A DNA stretch of 64,000 bases, from NCBI GenBank assembly GCA_964629675.1, contig CAZVUG010000016.1, positions 43 to 64,042 of the forward strand, written 5' to 3'. Position numbers and translations under genes: made by a program. Numbering within the stretch: the first letter of the stretch is position 1; the number at the start of each line of letters is the position of its first letter. Below, piece by piece: positions 28,938 to 61,800 of this stretch. Under the pieces are notes generated by a model. That model searched no databases, was not told the origin of the DNA, and saw only the letters and a list, made by a program, of their open reading frames with translations. This stretch comes from an uncultured Candidatus Saccharibacteria bacterium. GTDB taxonomy: Bacteria > Patescibacteriota > Minisyncoccia > Portnoybacterales > UBA2143.

Positions 28938-29524
28938 AAGACCTCTTTCAATTTATTAAAATCATTTTTCAAAAATTCTTTCATATTTTGATTATAGACT
29001 GCAACAGCTGGATGATAAAAAGGAATAATTTTTATTTTTCCATAATCTGCCTGTGAATCAAAAAATTGGCCATGAATTTTGCTAATTCCTTGGATTTCAT
29101 CCTTTAAATTAAATTTTTCTAAAAGATAAGCGGAAGCATAATTTCCTAAAGCGCCAATTACTTTAGGCTTAATAATATTAATTTGCCTTATTAAATAAGG
29201 AACGCAAGCTTCAATTTCTTCCTGCTGAGGATTACGATTATGAGGCGGCCGGTCTTTTAAAATATTAGTGATATATATTTCCTCTCTTTTAATGCCGGCT
29301 GATTCTAATAATTCATCTAAAACTTTTCCGGCTTGTCCGCAGAAAGGCCGGCCGGTTTTTGATTCGGAAGCACCCGGAGCTTCACCGACCAAAACTATTT
29401 TAGTTTGATGGTTGCCTTCGCCAATAACTGGCAAAATCCTTGTTTTGTATAAAGGACATTTTTGGCAGGCAATTACCTCTTCTTTGATTTTTTTTAGTTT
29501 TGTTTCTATTTCTTTTATTTGCAT
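28934..29524 (-). CDS. Uracil-DNA glycosylase, family 4 (Fe-S type)
   Basis: CQKCPLYKTR...GEGN...VLVGEAPGASE...GRPFCGQAG...HP are motifs of family-4 UDGs. Confidence 0.85.
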   Translation of the reverse strand: MQIKEIETKLKKIKEEVIACQKCPLYKTRILPVIGEGNHQTKIVLVGEAPGASESKTGRPFCGQAGKVLDELLESAGIKREEIYITNILKDRPPHNRNPQQEEIEACVPYLIRQINIIKPKVIGALGNYASAYLLEKFNLKDEIQGISKIHGQFFDSQADYGKIKIIPFYHPAVAVYNQNMKEFLKNDFNKLKEVL

Positions 29525-30285
29525 GATGAGAAGACAAGAGAGATTAAAAAGATCAAAGTAGCTGACAAAATGACCAAAGGACCTGCTGGTAGAGAAAAAG
29601 ATTCAAAAGCAATAATGCCAATAACAGAAGCAAGACTACCAATTAATAAAGCACCATAAGAATATTGGGATAAATTACGGGCGAAATTGCGCGCGGCTGC
29701 CGCTGGCGTAATAACTAAAGCGCCCATCAGGAGAGAACCAGTTACTTTTATTCCCAAAGCAACAACAACAGCAATGCAAGCTAAATAAATAAAATTATAT
29801 TTTTTGACCTTGATGTGCTCTACCTTAGCTAAATTTTCTGAAAGGTTAGCCAAAATTATCTTAGAAAAAATCTTTTTTAAAACCAGCCAAGTTAAAACAC
29901 ATAATATTATTGAAATTAAGGCATCCCAAAATCCGACTTGCGATATATCTCCAATTAAAGCAGTCGAGACTTCTTCTTCTGGCAAGAACAAAAAAGCAAT
30001 AGCTACAGAAGCTGTAAAAACGATGCCAGTTAATGCTTCCATTGGCAATTTTGTTCTCATTTCAAAAAGCCAAATTAAAATAATGCCTAAGATTAAGATT
30101 GGCAGCGCCCCTAGAGAAACATTAAATTCATAAATTAAAGCCAAAGCTACTCCAGGCAAAGCAACATGCCCTAAGGCATCGCCGACTAGCGCCATTCTTT
30201 TAGTTACCATTAGAGATCCTAGATAGCCTGCTAGCCCGCCGACAAAAACACCTATTATTAAACTATATAGAAATTGAACCTCCAT
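29515..30285 (-). CDS. Metal (Zn/Mn/Fe) ABC transporter permease, ABC-3/ZnuB-TroCD family
   Basis: 256 aa, about 8 TM segments, with ABC-3 family-like blocks (VGDALGHVALPGVALA). Confidence 0.8.
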   Translation of the reverse strand: MEVQFLYSLIIGVFVGGLAGYLGSLMVTKRMALVGDALGHVALPGVALALIYEFNVSLGALPILILGIILIWLFEMRTKLPMEALTGIVFTASVAIAFLFLPEEEVSTALIGDISQVGFWDALISIILCVLTWLVLKKIFSKIILANLSENLAKVEHIKVKKYNFIYLACIAVVVALGIKVTGSLLMGALVITPAAAARNFARNLSQYSYGALLIGSLASVIGIIAFESFSLPAGPLVILSATLIFLISLVFSSCK

Positions 30286-30940
30286 AAATTTTAGCTAAAT
30301 TTTTAGGATTAATTACTTTTTCCGGAGAACCAAAAAACAATTTTTCTTTGTTTAAGGCTAAAACTCTATCTGCCTTTTTAACAACTTCTCCTATTTCATG
30401 AGAGACTAGAATAATTGATTGATTCTTTTGCTGCCAAAGCTTAATTAAAGAGTCGTAAATAGTTTCCCGGCCATGAATATCAATACCGACCATCGGCTCG
30501 TCTAAAAGTAAAACATCTGGCTCATCTATTAAAACCCAGGCAATAGTTACTCTTTTTAGCTGCCCTGTAGAAAGGGTGCCTAATCTTTTATTTAAAAATT
30601 TAGTTGTATCTTTTATGCCTATCCAGCCAAGAGCTTCTGCTGCTCTTAATAATTTCTTATCCTTGAATTTGAAAAAATCCTTAACACTTAAAGGCAGATT
30701 CGGAGAAACATCAAAATTTTCAGGAACATAACCAACATGGATATCTTTTTTCCACTGAATTTTTCCTTTAAAGGGATGGAGGTTTAACAAAGTTCTTAAT
30801 AAGACGCTTTTGCCGGCTCCGTTCGGACCTAAGACAACCAGAACTTCTTTGCTTTTTAAATTAAAGCTTAAATTTTCTAGGACTTTTTCTTTGCCTAGCT
30901 CTACATTTAAATTTTCTACTTTAAGAATGCTTTCTGGCAT
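30263..30940 (-). CDS. Metal ABC transporter ATP-binding protein (ZnuC-like)
   Basis: Walker A GPNGAGKS, signature LSTGQ and Walker B LLLDEP. 23-nt overlap with the permease gene. Confidence 0.85.
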   Translation of the reverse strand: MPESILKVENLNVELGKEKVLENLSFNLKSKEVLVVLGPNGAGKSVLLRTLLNLHPFKGKIQWKKDIHVGYVPENFDVSPNLPLSVKDFFKFKDKKLLRAAEALGWIGIKDTTKFLNKRLGTLSTGQLKRVTIAWVLIDEPDVLLLDEPMVGIDIHGRETIYDSLIKLWQQKNQSIILVSHEIGEVVKKADRVLALNKEKLFFGSPEKVINPKNLAKIYGGSISI

Positions 30941-30942
30941 AA

Positions 30943-31869
30943 TTATTTATTTTGCTTTAAATAAGCAAAAATACTGCTAGCAGCAATAGCTCCTTCGGCG
31001 CAAGCAGTAATAATTTGGCGGAAATTATTAGATCCGTTAGTAATATCGCCAGCTGCCCAAACACCCTTAACATTAGTTGAGCCGCCGCTATCAATTTTAA
31101 TAAATCCATTCTGGTCTTTATCCAGATTCAATTCTTCGGCCATTTCTAAATGAGGAGCAATCCCCATTTCAACAAAAATACCATCTAAAGCTAAATTATT
31201 TTTTCCTTGGTGTTCTTTTTCTAAAACTGCCTCTTCCAAAAAATCATTTCCTTTTAATTCAGTAATTTTGTTTTCTAAAACTAATTCAATTTTAGGATTA
31301 CTTTTTACTTTTTTCTGCCAAATTTTATCTGCTTTCAATTCGCTTTCATGAATAAGATAAACTTTTTTAGCTATTTCTGCTAAATAATCGGCTGTAGTTG
31401 CTGCTGCACTGCTTCCGCCAATAACAGCAACAATTTTATCAGTAAATAATTTACCGTCACAGGTAGCGCAATAAGAAACGCCTTTGCCAAAAAATTCATT
31501 TTCGCCTGAGATGTTAAGTTTTTGCCTTTCGGCCCCCATAGCCAAAAGAATATTTTCGCTAAAATATTTTTGGCCAGTTATTGTTTCTAGCAAGAAACTA
31601 TCTTCTTGCCGGGAAATTTTAACTACTTTATCTGAAATTATTTCCGCGCCTAGCTTGCTAGCTGAATTTTCCATCTTTTTTACTAAATCTTCTCCTTTAA
31701 TTTCCTCTTCACTAGGGAAATTGCCAACTTTATGCGCTTCTGCCATTCGACCGTCAATTAAAGAGCCAATCATCAAATGATTTAAGCCGAATCGCGAAAG
31801 ATAAATTGAAGCCGTCATGCCTGCTGGGCCGCTACCAACAATTATTAAATTATATTTTTTTTCATTCAT
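30943..31869 (-). CDS. trxB: Low-Mr thioredoxin reductase homologue lacking the NADPH-binding HRRxxxR motif
   Basis: FAD motif VGSGPAGMTA and redox CATC (SYCATCDG). Where E. coli TrxR has VHLIHRRDGFRA, this protein reads VYLIHESELKA. Confidence 0.8.
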   Translation of the reverse strand: MNEKKYNLIIVGSGPAGMTASIYLSRFGLNHLMIGSLIDGRMAEAHKVGNFPSEEEIKGEDLVKKMENSASKLGAEIISDKVVKISRQEDSFLLETITGQKYFSENILLAMGAERQKLNISGENEFFGKGVSYCATCDGKLFTDKIVAVIGGSSAAATTADYLAEIAKKVYLIHESELKADKIWQKKVKSNPKIELVLENKITELKGNDFLEEAVLEKEHQGKNNLALDGIFVEMGIAPHLEMAEELNLDKDQNGFIKIDSGGSTNVKGVWAAGDITNGSNNFRQIITACAEGAIAASSIFAYLKQNK

Positions 31870-32914
31870 TATTTTTAAACAAAAAGCTTTTAATAGTCTT
31901 AATTAAGACTATTAAGCTAATTGCTATTAAGATTAAATAAACGCCAAAACCGCAATAGGCTAAAAAAGACTGATTAGTCAGCAGAGACTGATTTAAAGAA
32001 GCAATTGAAACAGAAGCTGTTGGAAAAACAAAAGCCCACCAGCTAATTCCATAAGGAAGCTCTATTTTTTTAAAATAATAGCCAGTTAATAAGATAAGTA
32101 AGATTAGCAACCAAAGGCCTATGCCAATTAACATTGGATTAATTAAAATTGGCAAAGCCATTAAAGATTCTTTAAATTCAGGCAAATATTTGCCAGTCTT
32201 TTCAGCAAATAAAGATAGAGACAAAGACATTAAAGAGAAAGGAACCAAAATAATCCAAAAGGAAGGAAAGATTTTTGGATTTAATTTCTCAAAGAAAAAA
32301 ACTTTGCTGAATAAAGATATGGCTATTAGCAAAAAAACAAAAGCGCCCGCACCAAAGAAAAAATAATTAATAAACAATATTATTTTAGCAACAGGAAGAT
32401 TAGAAATAAAAAAATTAATTATTTCCAATCCGGCAATTGGCGTCAGTAAAGCAGCTACTGGCGGCACTAACCACCCCCCATTAATAAAATTAATATTCAT
32501 TTCCTCGTTAATAATCAATGAATAAACAGCTAAGGTCAGTAGGATAAATTCAAAGATAGCGCCAACAAACCAAAAGATAATTGAAATATCTTGATAATTC
32601 CAAAGAGACAAATTAAAGCCCAGCTTAGAAAAGTTGATAGCAATCATGATCATTGCTGCCGGCATTAATGAATGAAAGCCAGCCATTATTGGGCTTTTTA
32701 ACTCTTCGGCCAAAAGATCAGCGTAAACTACAGCTTTTAAAATCCAGAAAATAAACAAGAAAACAAATAAAAACAAATTAAAGTAAACTAATAAGGAAGT
32801 AAAAGGAATTAGCCAAGGAAAATTAAAAATCTTTGCGACTAAGAAAGAAGCAATAGCTATCCCACCAAAACCTAATACTGTTGCAAACCAAATTGGACTA
32901 AATTTTTTAATCAT
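31862..32914 (-). CDS. TDT-family (TehA/Mae1/Ssu1-like) anion transporter
   Basis: 350 aa, about 10 TM segments. N-terminal PIWFATVLGFGGIA resembles TehA/C4-dicarboxylate-malate transporter family openings. Overlaps trxB and trx by 8 nt each. Confidence 0.6.
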   Translation of the reverse strand: MIKKFSPIWFATVLGFGGIAIASFLVAKIFNFPWLIPFTSLLVYFNLFLFVFLFIFWILKAVVYADLLAEELKSPIMAGFHSLMPAAMIMIAINFSKLGFNLSLWNYQDISIIFWFVGAIFEFILLTLAVYSLIINEEMNINFINGGWLVPPVAALLTPIAGLEIINFFISNLPVAKIILFINYFFFGAGAFVFLLIAISLFSKVFFFEKLNPKIFPSFWIILVPFSLMSLSLSLFAEKTGKYLPEFKESLMALPILINPMLIGIGLWLLILLILLTGYYFKKIELPYGISWWAFVFPTASVSIASLNQSLLTNQSFLAYCGFGVYLILIAISLIVLIKTIKSFLFKNNE

Positions 32915-33251
32915 TTTTTAATTGAAGCTCTGTTTCTAATTCCCCCTTAAACATTTCAAAAGGCCTTAGCCCGATAAATTCTTGAGCTACTTGGCCATTC
33001 TTAAAAAGCTTTATATTAGGAATGCTTCTAATATCATATTGAATAGCTAAATTTTGATTCTCTGGAATTTCTGTGTTTAACTTGCAAATTTTTAATTGTC
33101 CGTCAAACTCTTCCGAAAGACTTTCTAAAACTGGCGCCATCATCAAGCAAGGCTGACACCAAGGAGCCCAGAAATCTACTAAAGTAGGAATTTCTGATTC
33201 CAAAACTTCTTCTTGAAAATTTTCACTTGTAACTTCGATTATTTTTGACAT
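32907..33251 (-). CDS. trxA: Thioredoxin with WCQPC active site
   Basis: 114 aa. VDFWAPWCQPCLMMAP in a thioredoxin fold (the canonical motif is WCGPC). Confidence 0.88.
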   Translation of the reverse strand: MSKIIEVTSENFQEEVLESEIPTLVDFWAPWCQPCLMMAPVLESLSEEFDGQLKICKLNTEIPENQNLAIQYDIRSIPNIKLFKNGQVAQEFIGLRPFEMFKGELETELQLKND

Positions 33252-33268
33252 ATTTTTATTTTATTTAA

Positions 33269-33652
33269 TTATTTTCTGCCACCGCCACCCATTCCTTGAC
33301 CTCGGCCATCTCGAGGGCCTAGTCCCATGCCTCTGCCTTGGCCAGCGCCCATTCCCCGACCTCCTCTTAAACCTCGACCAAATTCTATTCCTTGGTTAGA
33401 TCTTTCCGGCTCAAATGAAGATTTATCCGCTGGCTCTTCATTTTTTTCCGCAGAAGATTCTTTCTGGCTTTCTTCCTCAGAAATTTTTTCTATAGCCCCC
33501 ATTGGACAAACGCTTTCTCCGCCGCATTCTGCCAGTTTCTCCTGACTTATTATGTCAACTTTTCCGTTAGAGTTGAACTCAGTCGCCCCCGGGCAAGACT
33601 GCAGACAAACGCCACAACCAATGCATTTCTCTTGATTTACCTTATATTTCAT
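33269..33652 (-). CDS. [4Fe-4S] ferredoxin with acidic linker and C-terminal Gly/Arg-rich tail
   Basis: CIGCGVCLQSCP plus a distal CP (SVCPMGAI), then EEESQKESSAEKNEE, then GRGLRGGRGMGAGQGRGMGLGPRDGRGQGMGGGGRK. Confidence 0.8.
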   Translation of the reverse strand: MKYKVNQEKCIGCGVCLQSCPGATEFNSNGKVDIISQEKLAECGGESVCPMGAIEKISEEESQKESSAEKNEEPADKSSFEPERSNQGIEFGRGLRGGRGMGAGQGRGMGLGPRDGRGQGMGGGGRK

Positions 33653-33741
33653 AACTTTTAAGATAAAAACCTTTATATTTGCGACAGCAAATTAATTTAC
33701 TATCGTAAAAATAAAAGCTATTTTTTATTAATTTAAATTTA

Positions 33742-35088
33742 TTACATTATTTTTCCCAAAGCTGACTGTGCTGCTGTAATTAACGGGTAGACAGTTGGCG
33801 CAGAAGTTAGCAGCGGATGCGTTGAAATTTGCAAAGAATCAAAATCATATAAAGTTGCCCGCCGCTGGATAGCCAAAGAAATTACATTGACTAATTCGCC
33901 AGCACTTTTTCCGCCAATTACTTGGCCGCCCAAGAGATTACCAGAGTCTTTAGAAAAAATAAGCTTAACTTTAATCTTTCTGGTATGAGGTAAGGTTCCT
34001 GGATGATGATCAGGAGCTTCACTCTCACCAACAATTGTTTCAAATCCTTCGTTTCGAGCTGTTTCCTCGCTGAAGCCAACACCGCCAAACATTGAATCTT
34101 TCAGATATGTTGAAAAGGCACCTAAAGTCCCTTTGTTTTCCCTGAAAATTTCTAATTGATAAAGGCTAGCTCCGGCTATTCTGGCTTCTGAGCAAGCTGT
34201 TGAAGCAAGCATCACTAGAATGGATTTACTAGTAAAGAAATCTTTCGTTTGCGCGCAATCACCGACAGCAAAAACGTCATCATAATTAGTTCTCATATAT
34301 TCATCAACTAGGATATTACCGTTTTCTTCTATCCTAATCCCGGCTTCTTTAGCTAATTCTATATTAGCTTTTGCTCCAATTGATAGAATAACTAAATCAG
34401 TTTCAATCTCTTTCTTGTCATCCAAAATTACTTTTTCAACTTTATCATTACCAGCAATTTCTTCAATCATTCTGCCAGTATGAATTTTAACTCCTTTTTC
34501 TTCTAGTTTCTTTTGTGCCTCCAAAGCAAATTCTTTATCAAAATTTGCCATTAAGCAAGTATCCATTTTTTCGACAATGTTTATTTCTTTGCCTTCTAGG
34601 CTACTGATTTCTTCTGCCATTTCTACGCCAATAAAACCGCCGCCAATAATAACTATTTTCTTAGCTTCCATGACTGCTTCTCTCATTTTTTTCAAATAAT
34701 CAACTTCTTTTTTAACTAGCCAAACTCCTTCTTTCTCAATTCCTTTAATAGGAATTTTAGTTGAGCTAGAACCAGTTGCTAAAACAAGCTTTTCGTATTC
34801 AATCTCTCCTTTTTTGGCCAAGGAAACTTTTTTGATTTTAGGATCAATTTTTTTAGCTTCATCTATAATTAAATCAATTTTATTCTTTGTTAATGGATCA
34901 TCTGGCGTAATATTTTTATCTACTGAATCTAAGCGATGAAAAATATATGGAATACCGCAAGGAACAACTGATTTTTGCTCTTTACGGACCAAGGTAATTT
35001 TTTTATCCGGGTTATGTTTTCTGGCAGTAATTGCCGTCACTATGCCGGCTGGACCTCCGCCAATAATTAAAATGTCTGTTTTGTTCAT
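33742..35088 (-). CDS. FAD-dependent pyridine nucleotide-disulfide oxidoreductase (NADH oxidase/CoA-disulfide reductase family)
   Basis: GGGPAG FAD motif, single redox Cys in KSVVPCGIPY, a second Rossmann motif IIGGGFIGVE and AVGDCA. Confidence 0.8.
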   Translation of the reverse strand: MNKTDILIIGGGPAGIVTAITARKHNPDKKITLVRKEQKSVVPCGIPYIFHRLDSVDKNITPDDPLTKNKIDLIIDEAKKIDPKIKKVSLAKKGEIEYEKLVLATGSSSTKIPIKGIEKEGVWLVKKEVDYLKKMREAVMEAKKIVIIGGGFIGVEMAEEISSLEGKEINIVEKMDTCLMANFDKEFALEAQKKLEEKGVKIHTGRMIEEIAGNDKVEKVILDDKKEIETDLVILSIGAKANIELAKEAGIRIEENGNILVDEYMRTNYDDVFAVGDCAQTKDFFTSKSILVMLASTACSEARIAGASLYQLEIFRENKGTLGAFSTYLKDSMFGGVGFSEETARNEGFETIVGESEAPDHHPGTLPHTRKIKVKLIFSKDSGNLLGGQVIGGKSAGELVNVISLAIQRRATLYDFDSLQISTHPLLTSAPTVYPLITAAQSALGKIM

Positions 35089-35915
35089 AAAATTGTCTCC
35101 TTAATATTTAATAATTTACTTTGCGAATAAGCTTTAACAATTTCCTTAGAATAAGGAAGTTCTTTTTCTATTTCTACCTTGTATTTTTTAGCTGTTTCTT
35201 CAACCATCTTTTTATCGCCTAGATTAGCTTGATTAAGAATTATTTTAACCGGCAGTTTCAACTGCTGACATAAATCTAAAATCAAACCTAGATCAACTGA
35301 CCCCATTGGCGTTGGCTCAGTTACTGCGTAAACTGAATCAACTCCCAAAAGAGCGTTGATAACTGGACAATGAGTCCCAGCCGCTGTATCTAAGATAACA
35401 AGATCTGCCTTATTTTTATCAGCAAATTCTAAAGCAAATTCTTTAACTTGGTTTACAATTGGCCCAGTTTCTTCTAATCCTGGCTTAGCCAAACCAGTAA
35501 TTAGATGAAAGCCTTTTTCAATTTGATTAAGATATATTTCCCCGACTTCTTTCTTCTCCGGCTTGATTGCTCCGTAAGGGCAAACATTCCAGCAAGCGCC
35601 ACAGCCTGAGCATAGATCCATAACAAAAATTGGATATTGTCCAGGAGCTTGGAAAATGGCATTTTCCCGGCAAGCTTTGACGCAAATTCCGCATTTTTGG
35701 CATTTGCTTTTATCTAATTTCGGGAAAGAAGCTGTTGCTTTCGCTACTGGTTTTTGCAACTTTTTGCCGATTAATAAATAATCATTTGGGCATTCTACAT
35801 CGCAGTCGACAAGAACAACCTTTTTATCTTTTTTAAAATAATTATTAGCTAGAATAACTGAGACAGTGGATTTCCCTGTCCCGCCTTTCCCTCCACTAAT
35901 GGCTATTTTCTCCAT
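35085..35915 (-). CDS. MinD/ParA-superfamily ATPase with inserted 2x[4Fe-4S] ferredoxin domain (second copy)
   Basis: Walker A GGKGGTGKS; CQKCGICVKAC and CSGCGACWNVCP. Confidence 0.85.
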   Translation of the reverse strand: MEKIAISGGKGGTGKSTVSVILANNYFKKDKKVVLVDCDVECPNDYLLIGKKLQKPVAKATASFPKLDKSKCQKCGICVKACRENAIFQAPGQYPIFVMDLCSGCGACWNVCPYGAIKPEKKEVGEIYLNQIEKGFHLITGLAKPGLEETGPIVNQVKEFALEFADKNKADLVILDTAAGTHCPVINALLGVDSVYAVTEPTPMGSVDLGLILDLCQQLKLPVKIILNQANLGDKKMVEETAKKYKVEIEKELPYSKEIVKAYSQSKLLNIKETIL

Positions 35916-35916
35916 A

Positions 35917-37155
35917 TTAAATCTTCTCCCTAGTAGGCTCTTTTAATGGCTTTAGCTTATTTTTTTGAAATTGGGCAATAATATTTCTAATATCTCCATC
36001 TTCTCCCCAATAGATATCAACAATGTTGTCCCTTAAGGCATGCAGAGAAATCGGCCCCATTTCTTTGCTAATTACTGAATCAATTTTTTCATTAATGACT
36101 AATTGAACTGTGCTCAAACCAGCCCTTATTTTTTTCCCTTGATAAATATTATTTTTAACATAATATCCCTGAATCCCCTGGCTGTCTAAATTAATAAAAA
36201 TAAAGTTCTTAGCTCGGCCAAAATGCTCAGAGATTATTGAATCAAGGCCTTGATCTTCTTCAATTGGTATGCAAATCTTTTGCTTGTGGACCATAAAAGG
36301 CAAAACAGTAACTGTAAAAGTATCAATTGCCTTTATTTTTCTTTTAATTTCCTTTTCAATATTTTCCGAGATTTCATAAGCTCTTTTAACATCTATGCTC
36401 TTGCCAATTTTAATTTTGACTTCGCCAAAAATAAGGGGGCCTGATTTTCTTAATCTTAAATTTTCAAATTCGCGGACGCCAGAAATATTATTTAAAATTT
36501 TCTCAATTTTTTCCTCATTTTCCTTTGACGGCGAGACATCCATCAAGGCAAAAATAGAATCTTTAGCTGAACTTAAACCAGCTTCAAAAATAAACAAAGA
36601 GATCAAAATTCCCATGACTCCTTCTAAATAAGAAATTTCCAGCCAAGCAGCAAATAAGCCGATTAAGACTAAGGAAGAAGAAAGCAAATGTAAACGAGAT
36701 TCCCGGCCGTCAGCAACTAAACTTTGCGAATTGATCTTTTTGCCTATTTTAACTTCGTAAGTGCCAATTGAAAACATGACAATGGCGTCTAAAATAGCTG
36801 CGCCAATTGCCACTAAGGGAATATTTAATTCTGGCTTAACAAATAATTCAGAAAAGCTTTCTCTAATAATTGTTACGCCGGCAAAAATAATTAAAACTGA
36901 AATCAAAAAAGCAGTTAGATTTTCTGCTTTGTAATAACCATAGGAAAATTTTTTAGTCGGCCTTTTCTGGGAAATTTTTAAGCCGAACCAAGCAGCAAAA
37001 CTAGAAAGAGAATCAGCTGCGCTATGAATAGCATCACCCATCAGAACAACACTTCCGGAAATAAGGCCAATTATTCCCTTAAGGACCGCTAAACTTATTG
37101 TTGCCAAGGCCGAAATAATAGTAGTTCTTTGGCCTTTTTTAAAAATTTCCGCCAT
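35917..37155 (-). CDS. Cation diffusion facilitator (CDF) transporter fused to a C-terminal NifX/NifB-like (Nitro_FeMo-Co) domain
   Basis: TM2 metal site GDAIHSAADSLSS, six TM segments and a cytoplasmic CDF domain. The last roughly 110 aa (KICIPIEEDQGLDSIISEHFGRAKNFIFINL...) match the NifX-like fold pattern of the next gene. Confidence 0.75.
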   Translation of the reverse strand: MAEIFKKGQRTTIISALATISLAVLKGIIGLISGSVVLMGDAIHSAADSLSSFAAWFGLKISQKRPTKKFSYGYYKAENLTAFLISVLIIFAGVTIIRESFSELFVKPELNIPLVAIGAAILDAIVMFSIGTYEVKIGKKINSQSLVADGRESRLHLLSSSLVLIGLFAAWLEISYLEGVMGILISLFIFEAGLSSAKDSIFALMDVSPSKENEEKIEKILNNISGVREFENLRLRKSGPLIFGEVKIKIGKSIDVKRAYEISENIEKEIKRKIKAIDTFTVTVLPFMVHKQKICIPIEEDQGLDSIISEHFGRAKNFIFINLDSQGIQGYYVKNNIYQGKKIRAGLSTVQLVINEKIDSVISKEMGPISLHALRDNIVDIYWGEDGDIRNIIAQFQKNKLKPLKEPTREKI

Positions 37156-37528
37156 ATCTTCTTCCCATGCCTAAATGGGATGGGCCAGTTGGCCCTTTAA
37201 TTTCTTTTAATTCTCCCTGACTATATTTTTTTAAAGCTTCTCTGGCAGAAATGCCAGCAACTCCAGTAAATATTTTTAGACCGCTGCTACTTAAAACAGC
37301 AAAAGCTCGCGGGCCAACATTGCCCGTAATAATAACTTTTGCTCCTGAAGAAGCAACTGCCTGAGCAGCCGTAATACCGGCTCCGCCCATTGCTTCTATT
37401 CCTGGATTATTGATCACTTCTACTTTTTTCCCTTCTTGATCAGTGACTAAAAAATAATTAGCCCTACCAAAACGAGGGTCTATCGGCGAATCTAGATTAG
37501 GAGAACTAACGCTTAGACAAATCTTCAT
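37139..37528 (-). CDS. NifX/NifB-like (dinitrogenase FeMo-cofactor-binding family) protein with Gly/Pro/Arg tail
   Basis: MKICLSVSS..LDSPIDPRFGRANYFLV...GGAGITAAQAV...GAKVIITGNVGPRAF. C-terminal tail GPTGPSHLGMGRRYGG. Confidence 0.8.
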   Translation of the reverse strand: MKICLSVSSPNLDSPIDPRFGRANYFLVTDQEGKKVEVINNPGIEAMGGAGITAAQAVASSGAKVIITGNVGPRAFAVLSSSGLKIFTGVAGISAREALKKYSQGELKEIKGPTGPSHLGMGRRYGGNF

Positions 37529-37530
37529 AA

Positions 37531-37800
37531 TTAATTGTTTTTATTTAGCTCCTCAAGGCGATTTTTAATTCCTTCCGTATCTTTTTTTAAAAGATTCAAT
37601 TCTTCATTAAGAATTTTCTTTTCTTCTTCTTTGGCTGGCTGAGATTCTTCAGAATAATAACGTCTGAATCCATAGCCTCTACCAAATCCTAAACCGCGGC
37701 CATAGCCGTAACGAGAAGTATAACCTGGAAAGCAGTTACCCATTCCCCGTCCAGTTCTTGGACCTAGTCCTTGAGGGCCTCTTCCATTTAAAGCAGGCAT
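37531..37800 (-). CDS. DUF5320-family protein
   Basis: N-terminus MPALNGRGPQGLGPRTGRGMGNCFPG..., followed by a Gly/Arg/Tyr-rich stretch and a C-terminal coiled coil. This is the architecture typical of DUF5320. Confidence 0.75.
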   Translation of the reverse strand: MPALNGRGPQGLGPRTGRGMGNCFPGYTSRYGYGRGLGFGRGYGFRRYYSEESQPAKEEEKKILNEELNLLKKDTEGIKNRLEELNKNN

Positions 37801-60477: not shown

Positions 60478-61267
60478 TCAATTTTTTCTCCTTATTTTTC
60501 TTCGGAAACCGGCGAAAGCTAATAAGCCCGATCCCAACAAAAACATTGTTGCTGGCTCAGGTACAGGAGCAGCCGAGCCTTCAATAACATCATTAGCGCA
60601 TGTCGCTGTACCCCAAACTAATCTCATTGACGCATCCAGATCATCTTCCCAGAATCCAGTTTCAATACTAATTCTATAGTCAGGAGAACCTCCAGGAAGA
60701 GAATTCCAAGTAACTTTCCCGCCTGGTAAACAGTCATAGCCATAATTATTACCTAAAGAACTTATTCTTACCGGAACGTCATGATTGTAACTATATGATC
60801 CAGGAGACGGATCAAAATCATCTGAAGTTAGATAGTTACCAACGGCATAGAGGCCTCCGGCAAAAAAAGTTCCATGATTTATTAAAGGAATTGCCCAAAG
60901 GTATTCATTCCCATAGAAATTCTCATACATGAAAAGATCGGCCGGCTCAGTTATCCAGCTTGCCGACAGTAACTCCTGATTGCGGATAGTCGGTATATAA
61001 ATCAAAGATGATATTGCCGCTGTTATGTCCTGGGGTAAAGTTCTTAATGTCAATGCCATAGCCTTCAAAACCTGTTCCAATCTGATCTCCAATTGGATCA
61101 TTTATGCTATATGCCATAACCGTTCCACTTATTAAAAAAGGAAATAATAAGATAGAAATAAATAGTATTTTTTTCATCAAAGACACTCCTTTCGCATAAG
61201 CCTTAGTTGTTTCTTCCATTATTATGGCAGCTAATAAGACAACTATAAATAATATCTTCTTTCCCAT
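60478..61267 (-). pseudogene. PEP-CTERM-anchored secreted protein, interrupted by a frameshift
   Basis: Two overlapping ORFs (61267-60947 and 61101-60478). The upstream ORF encodes signal peptide(s) and ends ...SGVTVGKLDN*. The downstream frame continues ...SWITEPADLF... and ends with VPEPATMFLLGSGLLAFAGFRRKIRRKN, i.e. PEP motif, TM segment and Arg-rich tail. A best start at ATG 61177 is preceded by AAGGAG. Confidence 0.7.
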
Positions 61268-61610: not shown

Positions 61611-61800
61611 CAAAAAATCCCTCTTTGAGGGAATAAAAAAATATTAATACTCTCAAGCCTCGAAGAGATAATACTTAAAAGAAAATAATTAAGCGACCTG
61701 GCTTATTTCTTGCCCTTAGGCAAAAACATCACAGTTGCGGGTCAGCCGAGGATTCTCACCTCAGTTCGTTAATCATTATCTGCTTATTTTAAAATTACTT
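61611..61800 (-). promoter_or_regulatory. Cobalamin-riboswitch-like leader with terminator expression platform
   Basis: Minus-strand core GAACUGAGGUGAGAAUCCUCGGCUGACCCGCAACUGUGA closely parallels the conserved cobalamin aptamer core (GGUGnGAAUCC...GCnGnCCCGCnACUGUGA). Further elements: a closing helix AUUAACGA/UCGCUUAAU, a small hairpin UUGCC-UAAG-GGCAA, an AAGCCAGG B12-box-like element, and terminator UCCCUC-AAA-GAGGGA plus U6 (61632-61612). Confidence 0.6.

What the first reader, a model, noticed from the sequence alone, without database searches (positions are those of the whole stretch)
30943..33652. Ferredoxin - thioredoxin(WCQPC) - TDT transporter - TrxR lacking the NADPH site: a possible ferredoxin-driven thioredoxin system wrapped around an anion transporter
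Seen: the TrxR homologue keeps its FAD motifs and the CATC redox centre. At the position of the E. coli NADPH-phosphate-binding HRRDGFRA it reads HESELKA, so all three Arg are lost.

Established knowledge: low-Mr TrxR homologues lacking this motif have been shown in clostridia, cyanobacteria and methanogens to use ferredoxin or deazaflavin instead of NADPH.

Seen: a ferredoxin gene heads the same gene run. A thioredoxin with an unusual WCQPC site follows it. A TehA/Mae1/Ssu1-family (TDT) transporter sits between trx and trxB, with 8-nt overlaps on both sides.

Inference: this looks like a ferredoxin-to-TrxR-to-Trx chain. It may be coupled to export or detoxification of a redox-active oxyanion (sulfite, selenite or tellurite), or to a dicarboxylate.
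Basis: partly seen in the sequence, partly recalled or inferred. Interest (0 to 1): 0.6.

Follow-up and report, generated by a model that had tools for sequence, protein, structure and literature searches.

The report
Thioredoxin pair wrapped around anion transporter
A small operon in an uncultured (CPR-type) bacterium joins an anion transporter to its own thioredoxin and to a thioredoxin reductase that has lost its NADPH-phosphate site; the same cassette occurs in tiny bacteria and tiny archaea, so it looks like a mobile, undescribed redox-plus-transport module whose electron donor (NADH or ferredoxin) and substrate are still unknown.

Summary
On the minus strand, ferredoxin (33269-33652), thioredoxin WCQPC (32907-33251), a TehA/SLAC1-fold TDT transporter (31862-32914) and a low-Mr TrxR (30943-31869) form one run, with 8-nt ATGA..TGA/TAA overlaps on both sides of the transporter.

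The TrxR keeps its FAD motifs and CATC. It reads GGSSAA / LIHESE-LKA where NADPH enzymes read GGGDSA / LIHRRDxFKA.

It belongs to a monophyletic clade of 16 protein clusters from CPR bacteria and DPANN archaea. Fifteen have no Arg in the 2'-phosphate motif and one keeps a single Arg. The clade is nested among Arg-bearing relatives. At least 9 of the 16 sit on a contig with this TDT subfamily.

The transporter-Trx/TrxR link also holds in Chloroflexota, in another gene order and with a canonical NADPH-type TrxR. Of about 27 TDT loci, 13 carry Trx and/or TrxR and 10 carry a single-cluster ferredoxin or a ferredoxin-NifX fusion.

The ferredoxin tracks the transporter whether or not TrxR is present. 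The TrxR is not a member of any known ferredoxin-dependent TR family, and it keeps a glycine-rich pyrophosphate loop. NADH is therefore at least as likely a donor as ferredoxin.

Verdict: partly supported; a new variant of a known kind; moderately interesting.

The parts
33269..33652 (-). Single-[4Fe-4S] ferredoxin domain (residues 1-57: CxxCxxCxxxCP ... C ... CP), then an acidic linker and a conserved G/R-rich tail (GLGPRDGRGQGMGGGGRK).
   Evidence: Pfam Fer4, Fer4_15 and Fer4_13. End-to-end alignment to P. furiosus Fd 2z8q and T. maritima Fd 1rof/1vjw. About 25 homologous clusters share the tail motif.
32907..33251 (-). Thioredoxin with the active site WCQPC.
   Evidence: PF00085 E 1e-27; TIGR01068 103.4 bits, above the cutoff. 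The same WAPWCQPCLMMAP motif occurs in L001, L006, L016, L018, L024 and L030.
31862..32914 (-). TDT (TehA/SLAC1-fold) anion transporter or channel of a tight, distinct subfamily. It overlaps both neighbours by 8 nt.
   Evidence: PF03595 E 1.2e-40. AF2 model pLDDT 90.8; Foldseek TM 0.7-0.85 to TehA and SLAC1 at 14-18% identity. The subfamily has 45 clusters at 50-72% identity, then drops to 33% or less. No sequence-level PDB hit.
30943..31869 (-). Low-Mr thioredoxin reductase lacking the three 2'-phosphate arginines (GGSSAA; LIHESE-LKA). CATC, GKG and the FAD motifs are kept.
   Evidence: AF2 pLDDT 92.3. The closest folds are canonical NTRs.
33678..33691 (-). Inverted repeat TTTGC-TGTC-GCAAA abutting a TATAAA box about 20 nt upstream of the ferredoxin ATG. 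A candidate operator/promoter for the run; inferred only.
   Evidence: Read from the sequence. Not found upstream of the cassette in other loci.
33742..35088 (-). Context: Nox/CoA-disulfide-reductase-like flavoprotein. It has Cys44 in SVVPCGIPY, and GGGFIG...IVEKMD suggests NADH. It lies 89 nt upstream of the ferredoxin.
   Evidence: Pfam Pyr_redox_2 and Pyr_redox_dim. The best NCBIfam match is CoA-disulfide reductase at 247 bits, below the cutoff. Motifs were read by eye. Not seen beside the cassette in other loci.
29515..30940 (-). Context: ABC ATPase (30263-30940) and ABC-3 permease (29515-30285) of the Znu/Mnt metal-importer type, 2 nt downstream of trxB.
   Evidence: Pfam ABC_tran and ABC-3.
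35085..37800 (-). Context: MinD-like ATPase with two Fer4 motifs, a CDF transporter fused to a NifX-like domain, a NifX-like protein and DUF5320. The same cluster flanks the cassette in L004.
   Evidence: Pfam; the L004 gene map.

Best explanation
The run is the CPR-bacterial copy of a horizontally mobile module. Its conserved core is a distinctive TehA/SLAC1-fold anion transporter plus a dedicated thioredoxin and thioredoxin reductase.

Shown:
- TDT and trxB travel together, translationally coupled, at 60-70% identity through CPR bacteria and DPANN archaea.
- The same transporter subfamily is joined to a Trx/TrxR pair in Chloroflexota, in another gene order.
- The sandwich-type TrxR forms one clade that descends from Arg-bearing low-Mr TrxRs and has lost the 2'-phosphate arginines.

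Inferred mechanism:
- The transporter moves a small thiol-reactive inorganic anion. My first guess is a sulfur species such as sulfite, thiosulfate or (poly)sulfide; selenite or tellurite is second.
- The WCQPC thioredoxin reduces that species or the thiol adducts it forms.
- The TrxR recycles the thioredoxin without NADPH.

Electron donor: I lean slightly to NADH, that is, a cofactor-specificity switch. The enzyme keeps full NTR architecture and a conserved glycine-rich pyrophosphate loop. It also usually has an acidic residue where the arginines were. Reduced ferredoxin is the main alternative.

The co-located single-cluster ferredoxin is tied primarily to the transporter, and to the NifX-like/DUF59/MinD-Fer4 neighbourhood, rather than specifically to the TrxR.

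Other lineages place the cassette under stress or metal sensors (CsoR family, Fur family, Lrs14-like). That suggests an inducible protective or uptake function rather than the housekeeping Trx system.
For: Loss of the Arg triad:
- Alignments to 3f8p and 4zn0 and to 120 homologues.
- The clade is monophyletic in 40/40 NJ bootstraps. Its sisters read HR[RKG]xxLRA.

Cassette conservation:
- L001 Woesearchaeota, L002/L011 Micrarchaeota, L005 Iainarchaeum, L004 bacterial, L006 Saccharibacteria, and L016-L018.
- Nine of the 16 clade TrxRs share a contig with the TDT.

Independent second arrangement: Fur-TDT-TrxR-Trx, with GGGDTA/HRRDQLRA, in L025 and L027.

TDT subfamily: tight and rare, with a TehA/SLAC1 fold.

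Regulators:
- A CsoR-family gene with two CsoR-box-like operators in L004, and a remnant in L018.
- Lrs14/Sta1-like genes with palindromes in the archaeal loci.
- A Fur-family gene in Chloroflexota.

NADH lean:
- The PP loop GGSSAA is as conserved as GGSDSA in the Arg-bearing sisters.
- 15 of 16 members have Asp or Glu within three residues after His175.
- The model is a full-length NTR fold without a tail.
- In the literature the PP motif is conserved in NADPH- and NADH-TRs but degenerate in the NAD(P)H-independent TRi (PMC5627308).
- Thermoplasma TR lacks HRRxxxR yet uses NADH (PMC6262447).
- The third-closest solved structure by sequence, Thermosipho TrxR 7jyp, also has no Arg here (MVQNLPYLTA) but keeps GGGDSA.
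Against: - No biochemical data exist for any member.
- The pyrophosphate loop is not canonical (GxSxxA rather than GxGxxA). By the published motif criterion (PMC10880999) the enzyme would be called a non-NTR.
- The acidic residue after His175 is not at a fixed position, and one member (P0008, HGGAKL) has none.
- A ferredoxin does head the run here and in L024.
- In L030 a 2-oxoacid:ferredoxin oxidoreductase sits between trx-trxR and the ferredoxins next to the TDT. So a ferredoxin input cannot be excluded.
- The substrate assignment rests only on family names (TehA, Ssu1, SLAC1) and on the kind of regulators found. The transporter has no conserved cysteine, and no substrate-processing enzyme is conserved in the cassette.
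- Four TDT loci have neither Trx nor ferredoxin nearby (L008, L014, L028, L032).
Confidence: 0.5

Rival explanations
1. Reduced ferredoxin (the gene heading the run) donates electrons directly to the Arg-less TrxR, which reduces the WCQPC thioredoxin. This would be an FFTR-like chain that arose independently of the clostridial and cyanobacterial FFTRs.
For: - Fd-trx-TDT-(trxB) occurs in the window and in L024.
- Both NADPH motifs fail the published criteria (PMC10880999).
- The ferredoxin is of the P. furiosus / T. maritima single-cluster type, which accepts electrons from 2-oxoacid oxidoreductases (its role as acceptor is my own knowledge).
- L030 places OFOR genes between trx-trxR and the ferredoxins.
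- Clade-specific changes near the flavin, such as Leu/Gln to Arg at window residue 41, might alter docking or potential (speculative).
Against: - The TrxR does not cluster with any known Fd-dependent TR: 117-120 bits against 227 bits to NTRs. It has no Trp tail and is not shortened.
- The ferredoxin is absent upstream in L001, L002 and L004. It is present next to the TDT where there is no TrxR, and also where the TrxR keeps its arginines.
- Most homologues of this ferredoxin are not on TDT contigs.
- The glycine-rich loop is retained.
Confidence: 0.3
2. The transporter, the ferredoxin and the Trx pair are accessory parts of the widespread but uncharacterised DUF134 / NifX-like / MinD-Fer4 / DUF5320 gene neighbourhood. 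They would serve iron-sulfur or metal-cluster homeostasis, for example sulfide or a metal-sulfur anion in or out with thiol and cluster reduction, rather than oxyanion detoxification.
For: - The cassette lies inside that cluster in the window and in L004.
- Fd-NifX fusions or DUF59/FeS_assembly_P genes lie next to the TDT in L009, L019, L021, L026, L029, L030 and L031.
- NifU, Zip, CDF, Znu-type and Fur or CsoR-family genes recur nearby.
- Ferredoxin, NifX-like and DUF5320 proteins share G/R/M-rich tails.
Against: - The archaeal sandwich loci (L001, L002, L005) and the Chloroflexota loci carry the TDT-Trx-TrxR core without most of that cluster.
- The function of the cluster itself is unknown, so the model explains little mechanistically.
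Confidence: 0.25
3. Nothing special. This is the organism's ordinary NADPH-linked housekeeping thioredoxin system with a divergent 2'-phosphate loop (Lys179 and His174 suffice), and the transporter lies between the genes by chance.
For: His175 and a Lys at the R181 position are kept, and the overall NTR fold is intact. Only one TrxR is visible in the 64-kb window.
Against: - Fifteen of the 16 clade members have lost all three arginines, and one keeps a single Arg; acidic residues were usually gained in their place.
- DvTRi keeps one Lys at this site and is not reduced by NAD(P)H (PMC5627308).
- The gene order is conserved across domains, and again in a second order in Chloroflexota, with translational coupling. 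This excludes chance.
Confidence: 0.07

Closest known systems
Canonical low-Mr NADPH-thioredoxin reductases (for example S. solfataricus TrxB3 3f8p/3f8r, M. mazei NTR 4zn0, E. coli TrxB 1tde)
   Same: Two-Rossmann-domain fold, full length, FAD GxGxxG, CATC redox centre, GKG/VSY thioredoxin-docking residues. These are the best sequence matches (227.5 bits to 3f8p) and fold matches.
   Different: HRRxxxR is replaced by HESE-LK. The PP loop is GGSSAAAT instead of GGGxxAxE. The score is below the TIGR01292 trusted cutoff.
NADH-linked low-Mr TRs (Thermoplasma acidophilum TR 3cty; Thermotoga maritima TR; D. vulgaris TR3) and the Arg-less Thermosipho TrxR 7jyp
   Same: An NTR-like scaffold that has lost the 2'-phosphate arginines while keeping a pyrophosphate loop (PMC6262447, PMC5627308; for 7jyp).
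   Different: An independent lineage: 152.6 bits to 3cty and 197.9 to 7jyp, about 30-35% identity. It has different replacement residues, a Ser in the second Gly position of the loop, and is embedded in a transporter cassette. The donor is untested.
Ferredoxin-dependent flavin TRs (clostridial FFTR 6gna/6gnd; cyanobacterial FFTR/DTR 5j60/6xtf) and D. vulgaris TRi 5nii
   Same: Flavin TRs with a CxxC centre that lack the NADPH motifs; anaerobe context; a ferredoxin gene nearby in this window.
   Different: Low similarity (117-120 bits). No C-terminal Trp tail, not shortened, no TQ/NGK or GEGxxAxN motif. The glycine-rich loop is less degenerate (PMC8154056, PMC5627308).
TDT family transporters/channels: TehA (H. 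influenzae 3m71-3m7c), plant SLAC1, yeast Ssu1 and Mae1
   Same: Pfam PF03595 over the full length. Ten-helix TehA/SLAC1 fold, TM 0.7-0.85.
   Different: Only 14-18% identity to solved members. No HMMER hit to any PDB chain. TehA equivalog score is 33 bits against a cutoff of 342. It forms its own tight subfamily. None of the characterised members is known to me to be operonic with Trx/TrxR (my own knowledge; literature searches found nothing).
CstR/CsoR-controlled sulfur-stress operons of Firmicutes (cst operon with the TauE sulfite exporter; CoA-persulfide reductases)
   Same: A CsoR-family repressor with CsoR-box operators directly upstream of the cassette in L004. It has two Cys 29 residues apart and no His four residues before the second Cys (read by eye). 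A CoADR-like flavoprotein lies upstream in the window. Both combine an anion exporter with thiol repair. The comparison rests on my own knowledge of the cst system.
   Different: The transporter family differs (TDT, not TauE). There are no sulfurtransferase or persulfide dioxygenase genes. The regulator is present in only one or two lineages. Its inducer is unknown.

Membership tests
Low-Mr thioredoxin reductase (TIGR01292, NTR type) | FAD-binding GxGxxG, redox-active CxxC in the second domain, and G[R/K]G thioredoxin-docking motif | tested here: met
   GSGPAG, CATC and GKGVSY are present and align with solved TrxRs. The AF2 model has pLDDT 92 and its top Foldseek hits are TrxRs.
Low-Mr thioredoxin reductase (TIGR01292, NTR type) | NADPH 2'-phosphate motif HRRxxxR | tested here: not met
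   HESE-LK aligns to HRRDTFK (3f8p) and HRRDHLK (4zn0). The motif has no Arg in 15 of 16 clade members, and a single Arg at the R181 position in P0013.
Low-Mr thioredoxin reductase (TIGR01292, NTR type) | Pyrophosphate motif GGGxxAxE / GxGxxA, and a score above the curated cutoff | tested here: not met
   The loop is GGSSAAAT. TIGR01292 scores 303.8 bits against a cutoff of 343.45. GGS is also found in Arg-bearing CPR relatives.
Clostridial ferredoxin-dependent flavin TR (FFTR) | Clusters with clostridial FFTRs; about 288 aa; lacks both NADPH motifs | tested here: not met
   116.7 bits to 6gna against 227.5 to 3f8p. The protein is 308 aa, with full-length alignment to NTRs. No FFTR is in the Foldseek top 50. 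Only the 'lacks motifs' part is met.
Clostridial ferredoxin-dependent flavin TR (FFTR) | Reduced by ferredoxin, not by NAD(P)H | not testable with these tools
   Needs an enzyme assay.
Cyanobacterial FFTR / DTR | [quoted passage not shown] | tested here: not met
   The protein ends ...SSIFAYLKQNK, right after the last helix (H286-306 of 308), with no Trp. 120 bits to 5j60, TM 0.57.
D. vulgaris TRi-type NAD(P)H-independent TR | TQ/NGK in place of HRRD, and GEGxxAxN in place of GGGxxAxE | tested here: not met
   The motifs here are HESE-LK and GGSSAAAT. 119.2 bits to 5nii (motif definitions from PMC5627308).
NADH-dependent low-Mr TR (TaTR / TmTR / DvTR3 kind) | HRRxxxR lost while the pyrophosphate loop is retained; activity with NADH | tested here: inconclusive
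   The Arg loss is met. The loop is retained but non-canonical (GGSSAA). An acidic residue follows His175 in 15 of 16 members, at variable positions. Activity is not testable here.
TDT (TehA/Mae1/Ssu1/SLAC1) transporter family, PF03595 | Full-length match to the family profile and a ten-helix TehA/SLAC1 fold | tested here: met
   PF03595 E 1.2e-40, residues 4-341. Foldseek TM 0.7-0.85 to 3m7x TehA and to SLAC1.
TehA tellurite-resistance / dicarboxylate transporter (equivalog NF008032) and TIGR00816 | Score above the curated cutoff | tested here: not met
   NF008032 scores 33.2 against 342. TIGR00816 scores 158.6 against 237.25. No PDB sequence hit.
Thioredoxin (TIGR01068) | Trx fold and a score above the cutoff; canonical WCGPC | tested here: met
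   103.4 bits against a cutoff of 96.8. The active site is WCQPC, not WCGPC. This is a conserved variant in seven TDT-linked loci.
Single-cluster [4Fe-4S] ferredoxin (P. furiosus / T. maritima type) | CxxCxxC...CP ligands plus two extra Cys; about 60 aa; end-to-end similarity | tested here: met
   Residues 2-55 align with 2z8q residues 3-62 and with 1rof/1vjw residues 1-57. Pfam Fer4_15 and Fer4_13. The C-terminal 70 residues are an extra, conserved G/R-rich extension.

The most novel reading that the evidence does not exclude
The TDT subfamily, its dedicated (WCQPC) thioredoxin, the Arg-less TrxR and the tailed single-cluster ferredoxin form a previously unrecognised, inter-domain mobile system. 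In it, low-potential electrons (ferredoxin and/or NADH, not NADPH) are coupled to transmembrane movement of a chalcogen or metal-sulfur anion. This would be a transporter-coupled reductive detoxification or sulfur/selenium acquisition device for ultra-small symbionts (CPR, DPANN), and an independently evolved third kind of ferredoxin-linked flavin thioredoxin reductase.
Probability: 0.25. Interest if true: 0.75.

Novelty: new variant of a known kind. Interest (0 to 1): 0.55.

Why it matters
Thioredoxin systems are usually drawn as NADPH to TrxR to Trx. Every exception found so far (clostridial and cyanobacterial FFTR, the F420-dependent DFTR, the NADH-linked Thermoplasma enzyme, DvTRi) has shown how an organism wires thiol redox control to its core metabolism.

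This work adds three things:
- A distinct Arg-less TrxR lineage, nested within ordinary TrxRs of CPR bacteria and shared with DPANN archaea. These organisms have minimal metabolism, and no Trx system from them has been characterised as far as I know.
- A Trx/TrxR pair that is physically and evolutionarily locked to a membrane anion transporter. This gives a concrete, cloneable three- or four-gene unit for testing.
- A functional handle on an orphan TDT subfamily and on the widespread NifX-like/DUF5320/MinD-Fer4 neighbourhood.

If the donor proves to be ferredoxin, FFTR-type chemistry would have evolved at least three times.

Tried and rejected
- Membership in FFTR, DTR or DvTRi was rejected on bit scores, motifs and the missing tail.
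- I looked for conserved redox cysteines in the transporter, as a route to Trx-regulated gating. There are none; the single Cys of the window protein is Leu in L004.
- Sequence searches of the TDT against PDB chains found nothing, with a single sequence or with a profile. Fold search was needed.
- I searched the window for a second TrxR, for OFOR, for DUF59 and for CsoR, Fur or Lrs14-like regulators. None was found.
- I tried to extend the ferredoxin-TDT co-occurrence by matching contig lengths of ferredoxin homologues to TDT contigs. Only the window matched.
- I could not obtain the residue-level alignment to Thermoplasma TR 3cty. The two papers that describe it are not held.
- Literature searches for this cassette, for TehA with TrxR, and for DUF5320/DUF134 returned nothing relevant.
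- The promoter and terminator scans were uninformative in this AT-rich DNA.
The motif alignment does not depend on it.

Full report
**1. What is there**

The window is low-GC (about 33%) DNA. It has a bacterial backbone: trigger factor, MnmA and a Thr-Tyr-Thr...Trp tRNA set. Its closest protein relatives come from Patescibacteria/CPR metagenome bins.

Between 37.8 kb and 26.7 kb every gene is on the minus strand with minimal spacers. The order is:
- DUF5320, a NifX-like protein, a CDF transporter fused to a NifX-like domain, and a MinD-like ATPase with two Fer4 motifs;
- a Nox/CoA-disulfide-reductase-like flavoprotein;
- ferredoxin, thioredoxin, the TDT transporter and TrxR;
- a Znu-type ABC ATPase and an ABC-3 permease;
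- a family-4 UDG, a second MinD-Fer4, DUF134 and MnmA.

The two 8-nt overlaps (ATGATTAA and ATGAATGA) are read directly from the DNA.

**2. The TrxR**

HMMER alignments to solved NADPH-dependent enzymes are unambiguous. Query 'GGSSAAATTA ... VYLIHESE-LKA' lies against 'GGGDSALEGA ... VYLIHRRDTFKA' of S. solfataricus TrxB3. That enzyme was crystallised with NADP as 3f8r. The same region lies against 'GGGNSAVTDA ... VYLVHRRDHLKA' of M. mazei NTR. All three arginines that bind the 2'-phosphate are gone. The FAD motif, CATC and the GKG/VSY thioredoxin-docking residues are kept.

The AlphaFold model is confident (pLDDT 92.3). It is a full-length NTR fold with no C-terminal extension, and its best Foldseek matches are ordinary TrxRs at 33-38% identity.

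Similarity to the characterised pyridine-nucleotide-independent enzymes is much lower. The bit scores are 116.7 to clostridial FFTR 6gna, 120.1 to Gloeobacter DTR/FFTR 5j60 and 119.2 to DvTRi 5nii. This compares with 227.5 to 3f8p. Their diagnostic features are absent: the Trp tail (PMC8154056) and the TQ/NGK and GEGxxAxN motifs (PMC5627308). It is therefore not a member of those families.

**3. The loss is a clade character**

Among the 120 best homologues, the 16 closest (59-100% identity) form a monophyletic group in 40/40 NJ bootstrap trees. They read H[SEG][EGK]xxLKA. Only P0013 keeps one Arg. The sister sequences read HR[RKG]xxLRA, and the large CPR group beyond reads YRRDKLRG. So the arginines were lost once, in the ancestor of this clade.

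The Ser in the second Gly position of the pyrophosphate loop (GGS) is older, because Arg-bearing CPR relatives share it. Within the clade the loop is well conserved (GGSSAA). Fifteen of the 16 members carry Asp or Glu within three residues after His175, though not at a fixed position.

**4. The sandwich is conserved and crosses domains**

Contexts of clade members show trx-TDT-trxB in:
- a Woesearchaeota MAG with archaeal neighbours aIF5B, aEF-1beta and aS21 (L001);
- a Micrarchaeota MAG (L002/L011);
- an Iainarchaeum MAG (L005);
- a bacterial MAG with PheST and GyrB (L004);
- a Saccharibacteria contig (L006);
- several metagenome contigs (L016-L018, L024).

Nine of the 16 clade TrxRs share a contig with the transporter. 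Five were read directly.

TDT and TrxR stay at 61-72% and 61-69% identity to the window proteins. The thioredoxin slot holds either a WCQPC type (67-79% identical; seven loci) or a WCGPC/CSPC type (about 40%). The co-travelling core is therefore TDT plus TrxR. Toxin-antitoxin and integrase genes around L001 and L002 fit mobility.

**5. The transporter**

It matches Pfam SLAC1/TDT over its whole length. Its model superposes on H. influenzae TehA and on plant SLAC1 with TM 0.7-0.85, at only 14-18% identity. No PDB chain is detectable by sequence, and the TehA equivalog model scores 33 bits.

In 5.8 billion proteins it has only about 45 cluster-level relatives at 50-72% identity, after which identity falls to 33% or less. 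This is a sharply bounded, rare subfamily scattered over CPR, DPANN, Chloroflexota and deltaproteobacterial MAGs. It has no conserved cysteine, so direct disulfide regulation by thioredoxin is unlikely.

**6. What travels with the transporter**

I examined about 27 non-redundant TDT loci.

- Thirteen have Trx and/or TrxR in the same run. This includes Chloroflexota/Dehalococcoidia loci with a different order, Fur-TDT-TrxR-Trx. There the TrxR is fully canonical (GGGDTA, HRRDQLRA).
- Ten have a single-cluster ferredoxin or a ferredoxin-NifX fusion within two genes. Three of these (window, L024, L030) also have Trx. The arrangements are:
  - Fd-trx-TDT (window, L024);
  - Fd-TDT (L020);
  - TDT-DUF59-Fd (L009/L022);
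  - TDT-Fd:NifX (L019, L021, L031);
  - TDT-rSAM-Fd:NifX (L026, L029);
  - trx(WCQPC)-trxR(YRRDKLRG)-OFOR alpha/gamma-OFOR beta-Fd:NifX-Fd-TDT-DUF59-UDG (L030).
- Four have neither, and three are too short to judge.

Two conclusions follow. First, the transporter-thioredoxin system link is robust and does not depend on the NADPH-site loss. Second, the ferredoxin is linked to the transporter, and to NifX-like/DUF59 proteins, with or without a TrxR, and also where the TrxR keeps its arginines. So the ferredoxin's position at the head of the window's run is weak evidence for ferredoxin-to-TrxR electron flow.

**7. The ferredoxin**

Residues 1-57 align end to end with the single-[4Fe-4S] ferredoxins of P. 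furiosus and T. maritima. The remainder is an acidic linker plus a tail, G[LR]GPRDGRGxGxGGGGRR, which is conserved in about 25 CPR ferredoxin clusters. The tail resembles the G/R-rich N-terminus of DUF5320 and the tail of a NifX-like protein in L026. Most of these ferredoxin homologues are not on TDT contigs.

**8. Regulation in relatives**

- L004 has a CsoR-family repressor gene immediately upstream of trx. Two CsoR-box-like operators overlap consensus promoters. L018/L006 retain a truncated remnant.
- The archaeal loci carry an Lrs14/Sta1-like wHTH gene after trxB and GTAGTGAT..ATCACTAC palindromes before trx.
- The Chloroflexota loci have a Fur-family gene.
- The window has none of these. 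It does have a 5-4-5 inverted repeat abutting a TATAAA box upstream of the ferredoxin gene.

Dedicated sensors of three different families argue for an inducible stress or acquisition function.

**9. Electron donor**

The literature gives two precedents for a flavin TR without HRRxxxR.
- NAD(P)H-independent enzymes (FFTRs, DvTRi). In DvTRi the pyrophosphate motif is also degenerate (PMC5627308).
- NADH-linked enzymes that keep the pyrophosphate motif. Thermoplasma TR was first called pyridine-nucleotide independent and later shown to use NADH (PMC6262447). T. maritima TR and DvTR3 are further cases (PMC5627308).

The third-closest solved structure by sequence, Thermosipho africanus TrxR 7jyp, also has no Arg at this site (MVQNLPYLTA) while keeping GGGDSA. 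I found no paper on its specificity.

The window enzyme resembles the second group in scaffold, length, loop retention and acidic replacements. However, its loop is non-canonical and the acidic residue is not fixed. My estimates are NADH about 0.45, ferredoxin about 0.30, residual NADPH under 0.1, and another donor for the rest.

**10. Function**

The substrate cannot be derived from sequence. Several things make a thiol-reactive sulfur, selenium or tellurium anion the best guess:
- the family names (tellurite resistance, sulfite efflux, anion channel);
- the thiol-reducing partner;
- the CsoR/CstR-like and Fur/PerR-like sensors;
- the CoADR-like gene upstream in the window.

The recurrent NifX-like, DUF59, NifU, MinD-Fer4, Zip, CDF and Znu neighbours make an iron-sulfur or metal-homeostasis role the main alternative. 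Both are inferences.

**11. Novelty and verdict**

I found no description of this cassette or of this TrxR clade. TrxRs lacking the NADPH motif are a known kind, and so are TDT transporters. What is new is:
- this particular lineage;
- its strict coupling to an orphan TDT subfamily;
- the inter-domain spread;
- the recurrent ferredoxin and NifX-like company.

The 'ferredoxin-driven' reading is only partly supported. Interest is moderate (0.55).

Noticed in passing
window 61639-61794 (-): AdoCbl (B12) riboswitch, Rfam RF01482, 61.6 bits. It lies upstream of two overlapping ORFs (60947-61267 and 60478-61101). The second ends in a PEP-CTERM-like sorting signal, VPEPATMFLLGSGLLAFAGFRRK. This is an unusual cargo for a B12 riboswitch.
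   Followed up: no
window 33269-33460 (-) (ferredoxin C-terminus); also window 37531-37800 and L026 4730-5155: The ferredoxin tail is not random low complexity. It is a conserved motif, G[LR]GPRDGRGxGxGGGGRR, present in about 25 CPR ferredoxin clusters. Similar G/R/M-rich segments occur at the N-terminus of DUF5320 and at the C-terminus of a NifX-like protein. This may be a shared interaction module of this gene neighbourhood.
   Followed up: partly
window 35917-37155 (-); L004 6013-7251: A cation-diffusion-facilitator transporter fused to a C-terminal NifX-like (Nitro_FeMo-Co) domain. It is conserved in two loci next to MinD-Fer4 and DUF5320 genes.
   Followed up: no
L030 115-6982: A CPR contig with trx(WCQPC)-trxR-OFOR alpha/gamma-OFOR beta-Fd:NifX-Fd(tailed)-TDT-DUF59-UDG, followed by NrdD/NrdG. 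Trx, Fd, TDT and UDG are 58-68% identical to the window's, but the TrxR is only 47% identical and keeps YRRDKLRG. This suggests that the window's TrxR was replaced or evolved fast.
   Followed up: partly
L004 1745-1904: Two near-identical CsoR-box-like operators (TTGACAnATACCCnnnGGGGGTnTAT) overlap consensus promoters upstream of the CsoR-family gene that precedes trx-TDT-trxB. The repressor has Cys30 and Cys59 but Asn, not His, four residues before Cys59. By my recollection this is more CstR-like than Cu-CsoR-like.
   Followed up: partly
L001 6379-6538; L016 762-921; L005 33-192: Palindromes of the type GTAGTGAT(N)ATCACTAC lie upstream of trx in the archaeal-type cassettes L001, L005 and L016. 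L001 and L005 also encode an Lrs14/Sta1-like regulator downstream of trxB; L016 ends inside trxB, so its regulator cannot be seen.
   Followed up: no
L025 7192-7400; L027 7024-7341: A conserved 200-300-nt spacer lies between the TDT and TrxR genes in the two Chloroflexota loci. In L025 it contains a 45-codon ORF starting MNYKITEKCIG, like the start of a ferredoxin. It may be a decayed ferredoxin gene or a regulatory element.
   Followed up: no
L001 12121-12363: A stray fragment encoding the last ~59 residues of a TrxR (52% identical to the window protein), about 3 kb downstream of the intact cassette and next to a phage-integrase fragment.
   Followed up: no
window 33678-33691: Inverted repeat TTTGC-TGTC-GCAAA directly upstream of a TATAAA box, 20 nt before the ferredoxin start codon. 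A possible operator. No matching regulator was identified in the window.
   Followed up: partly
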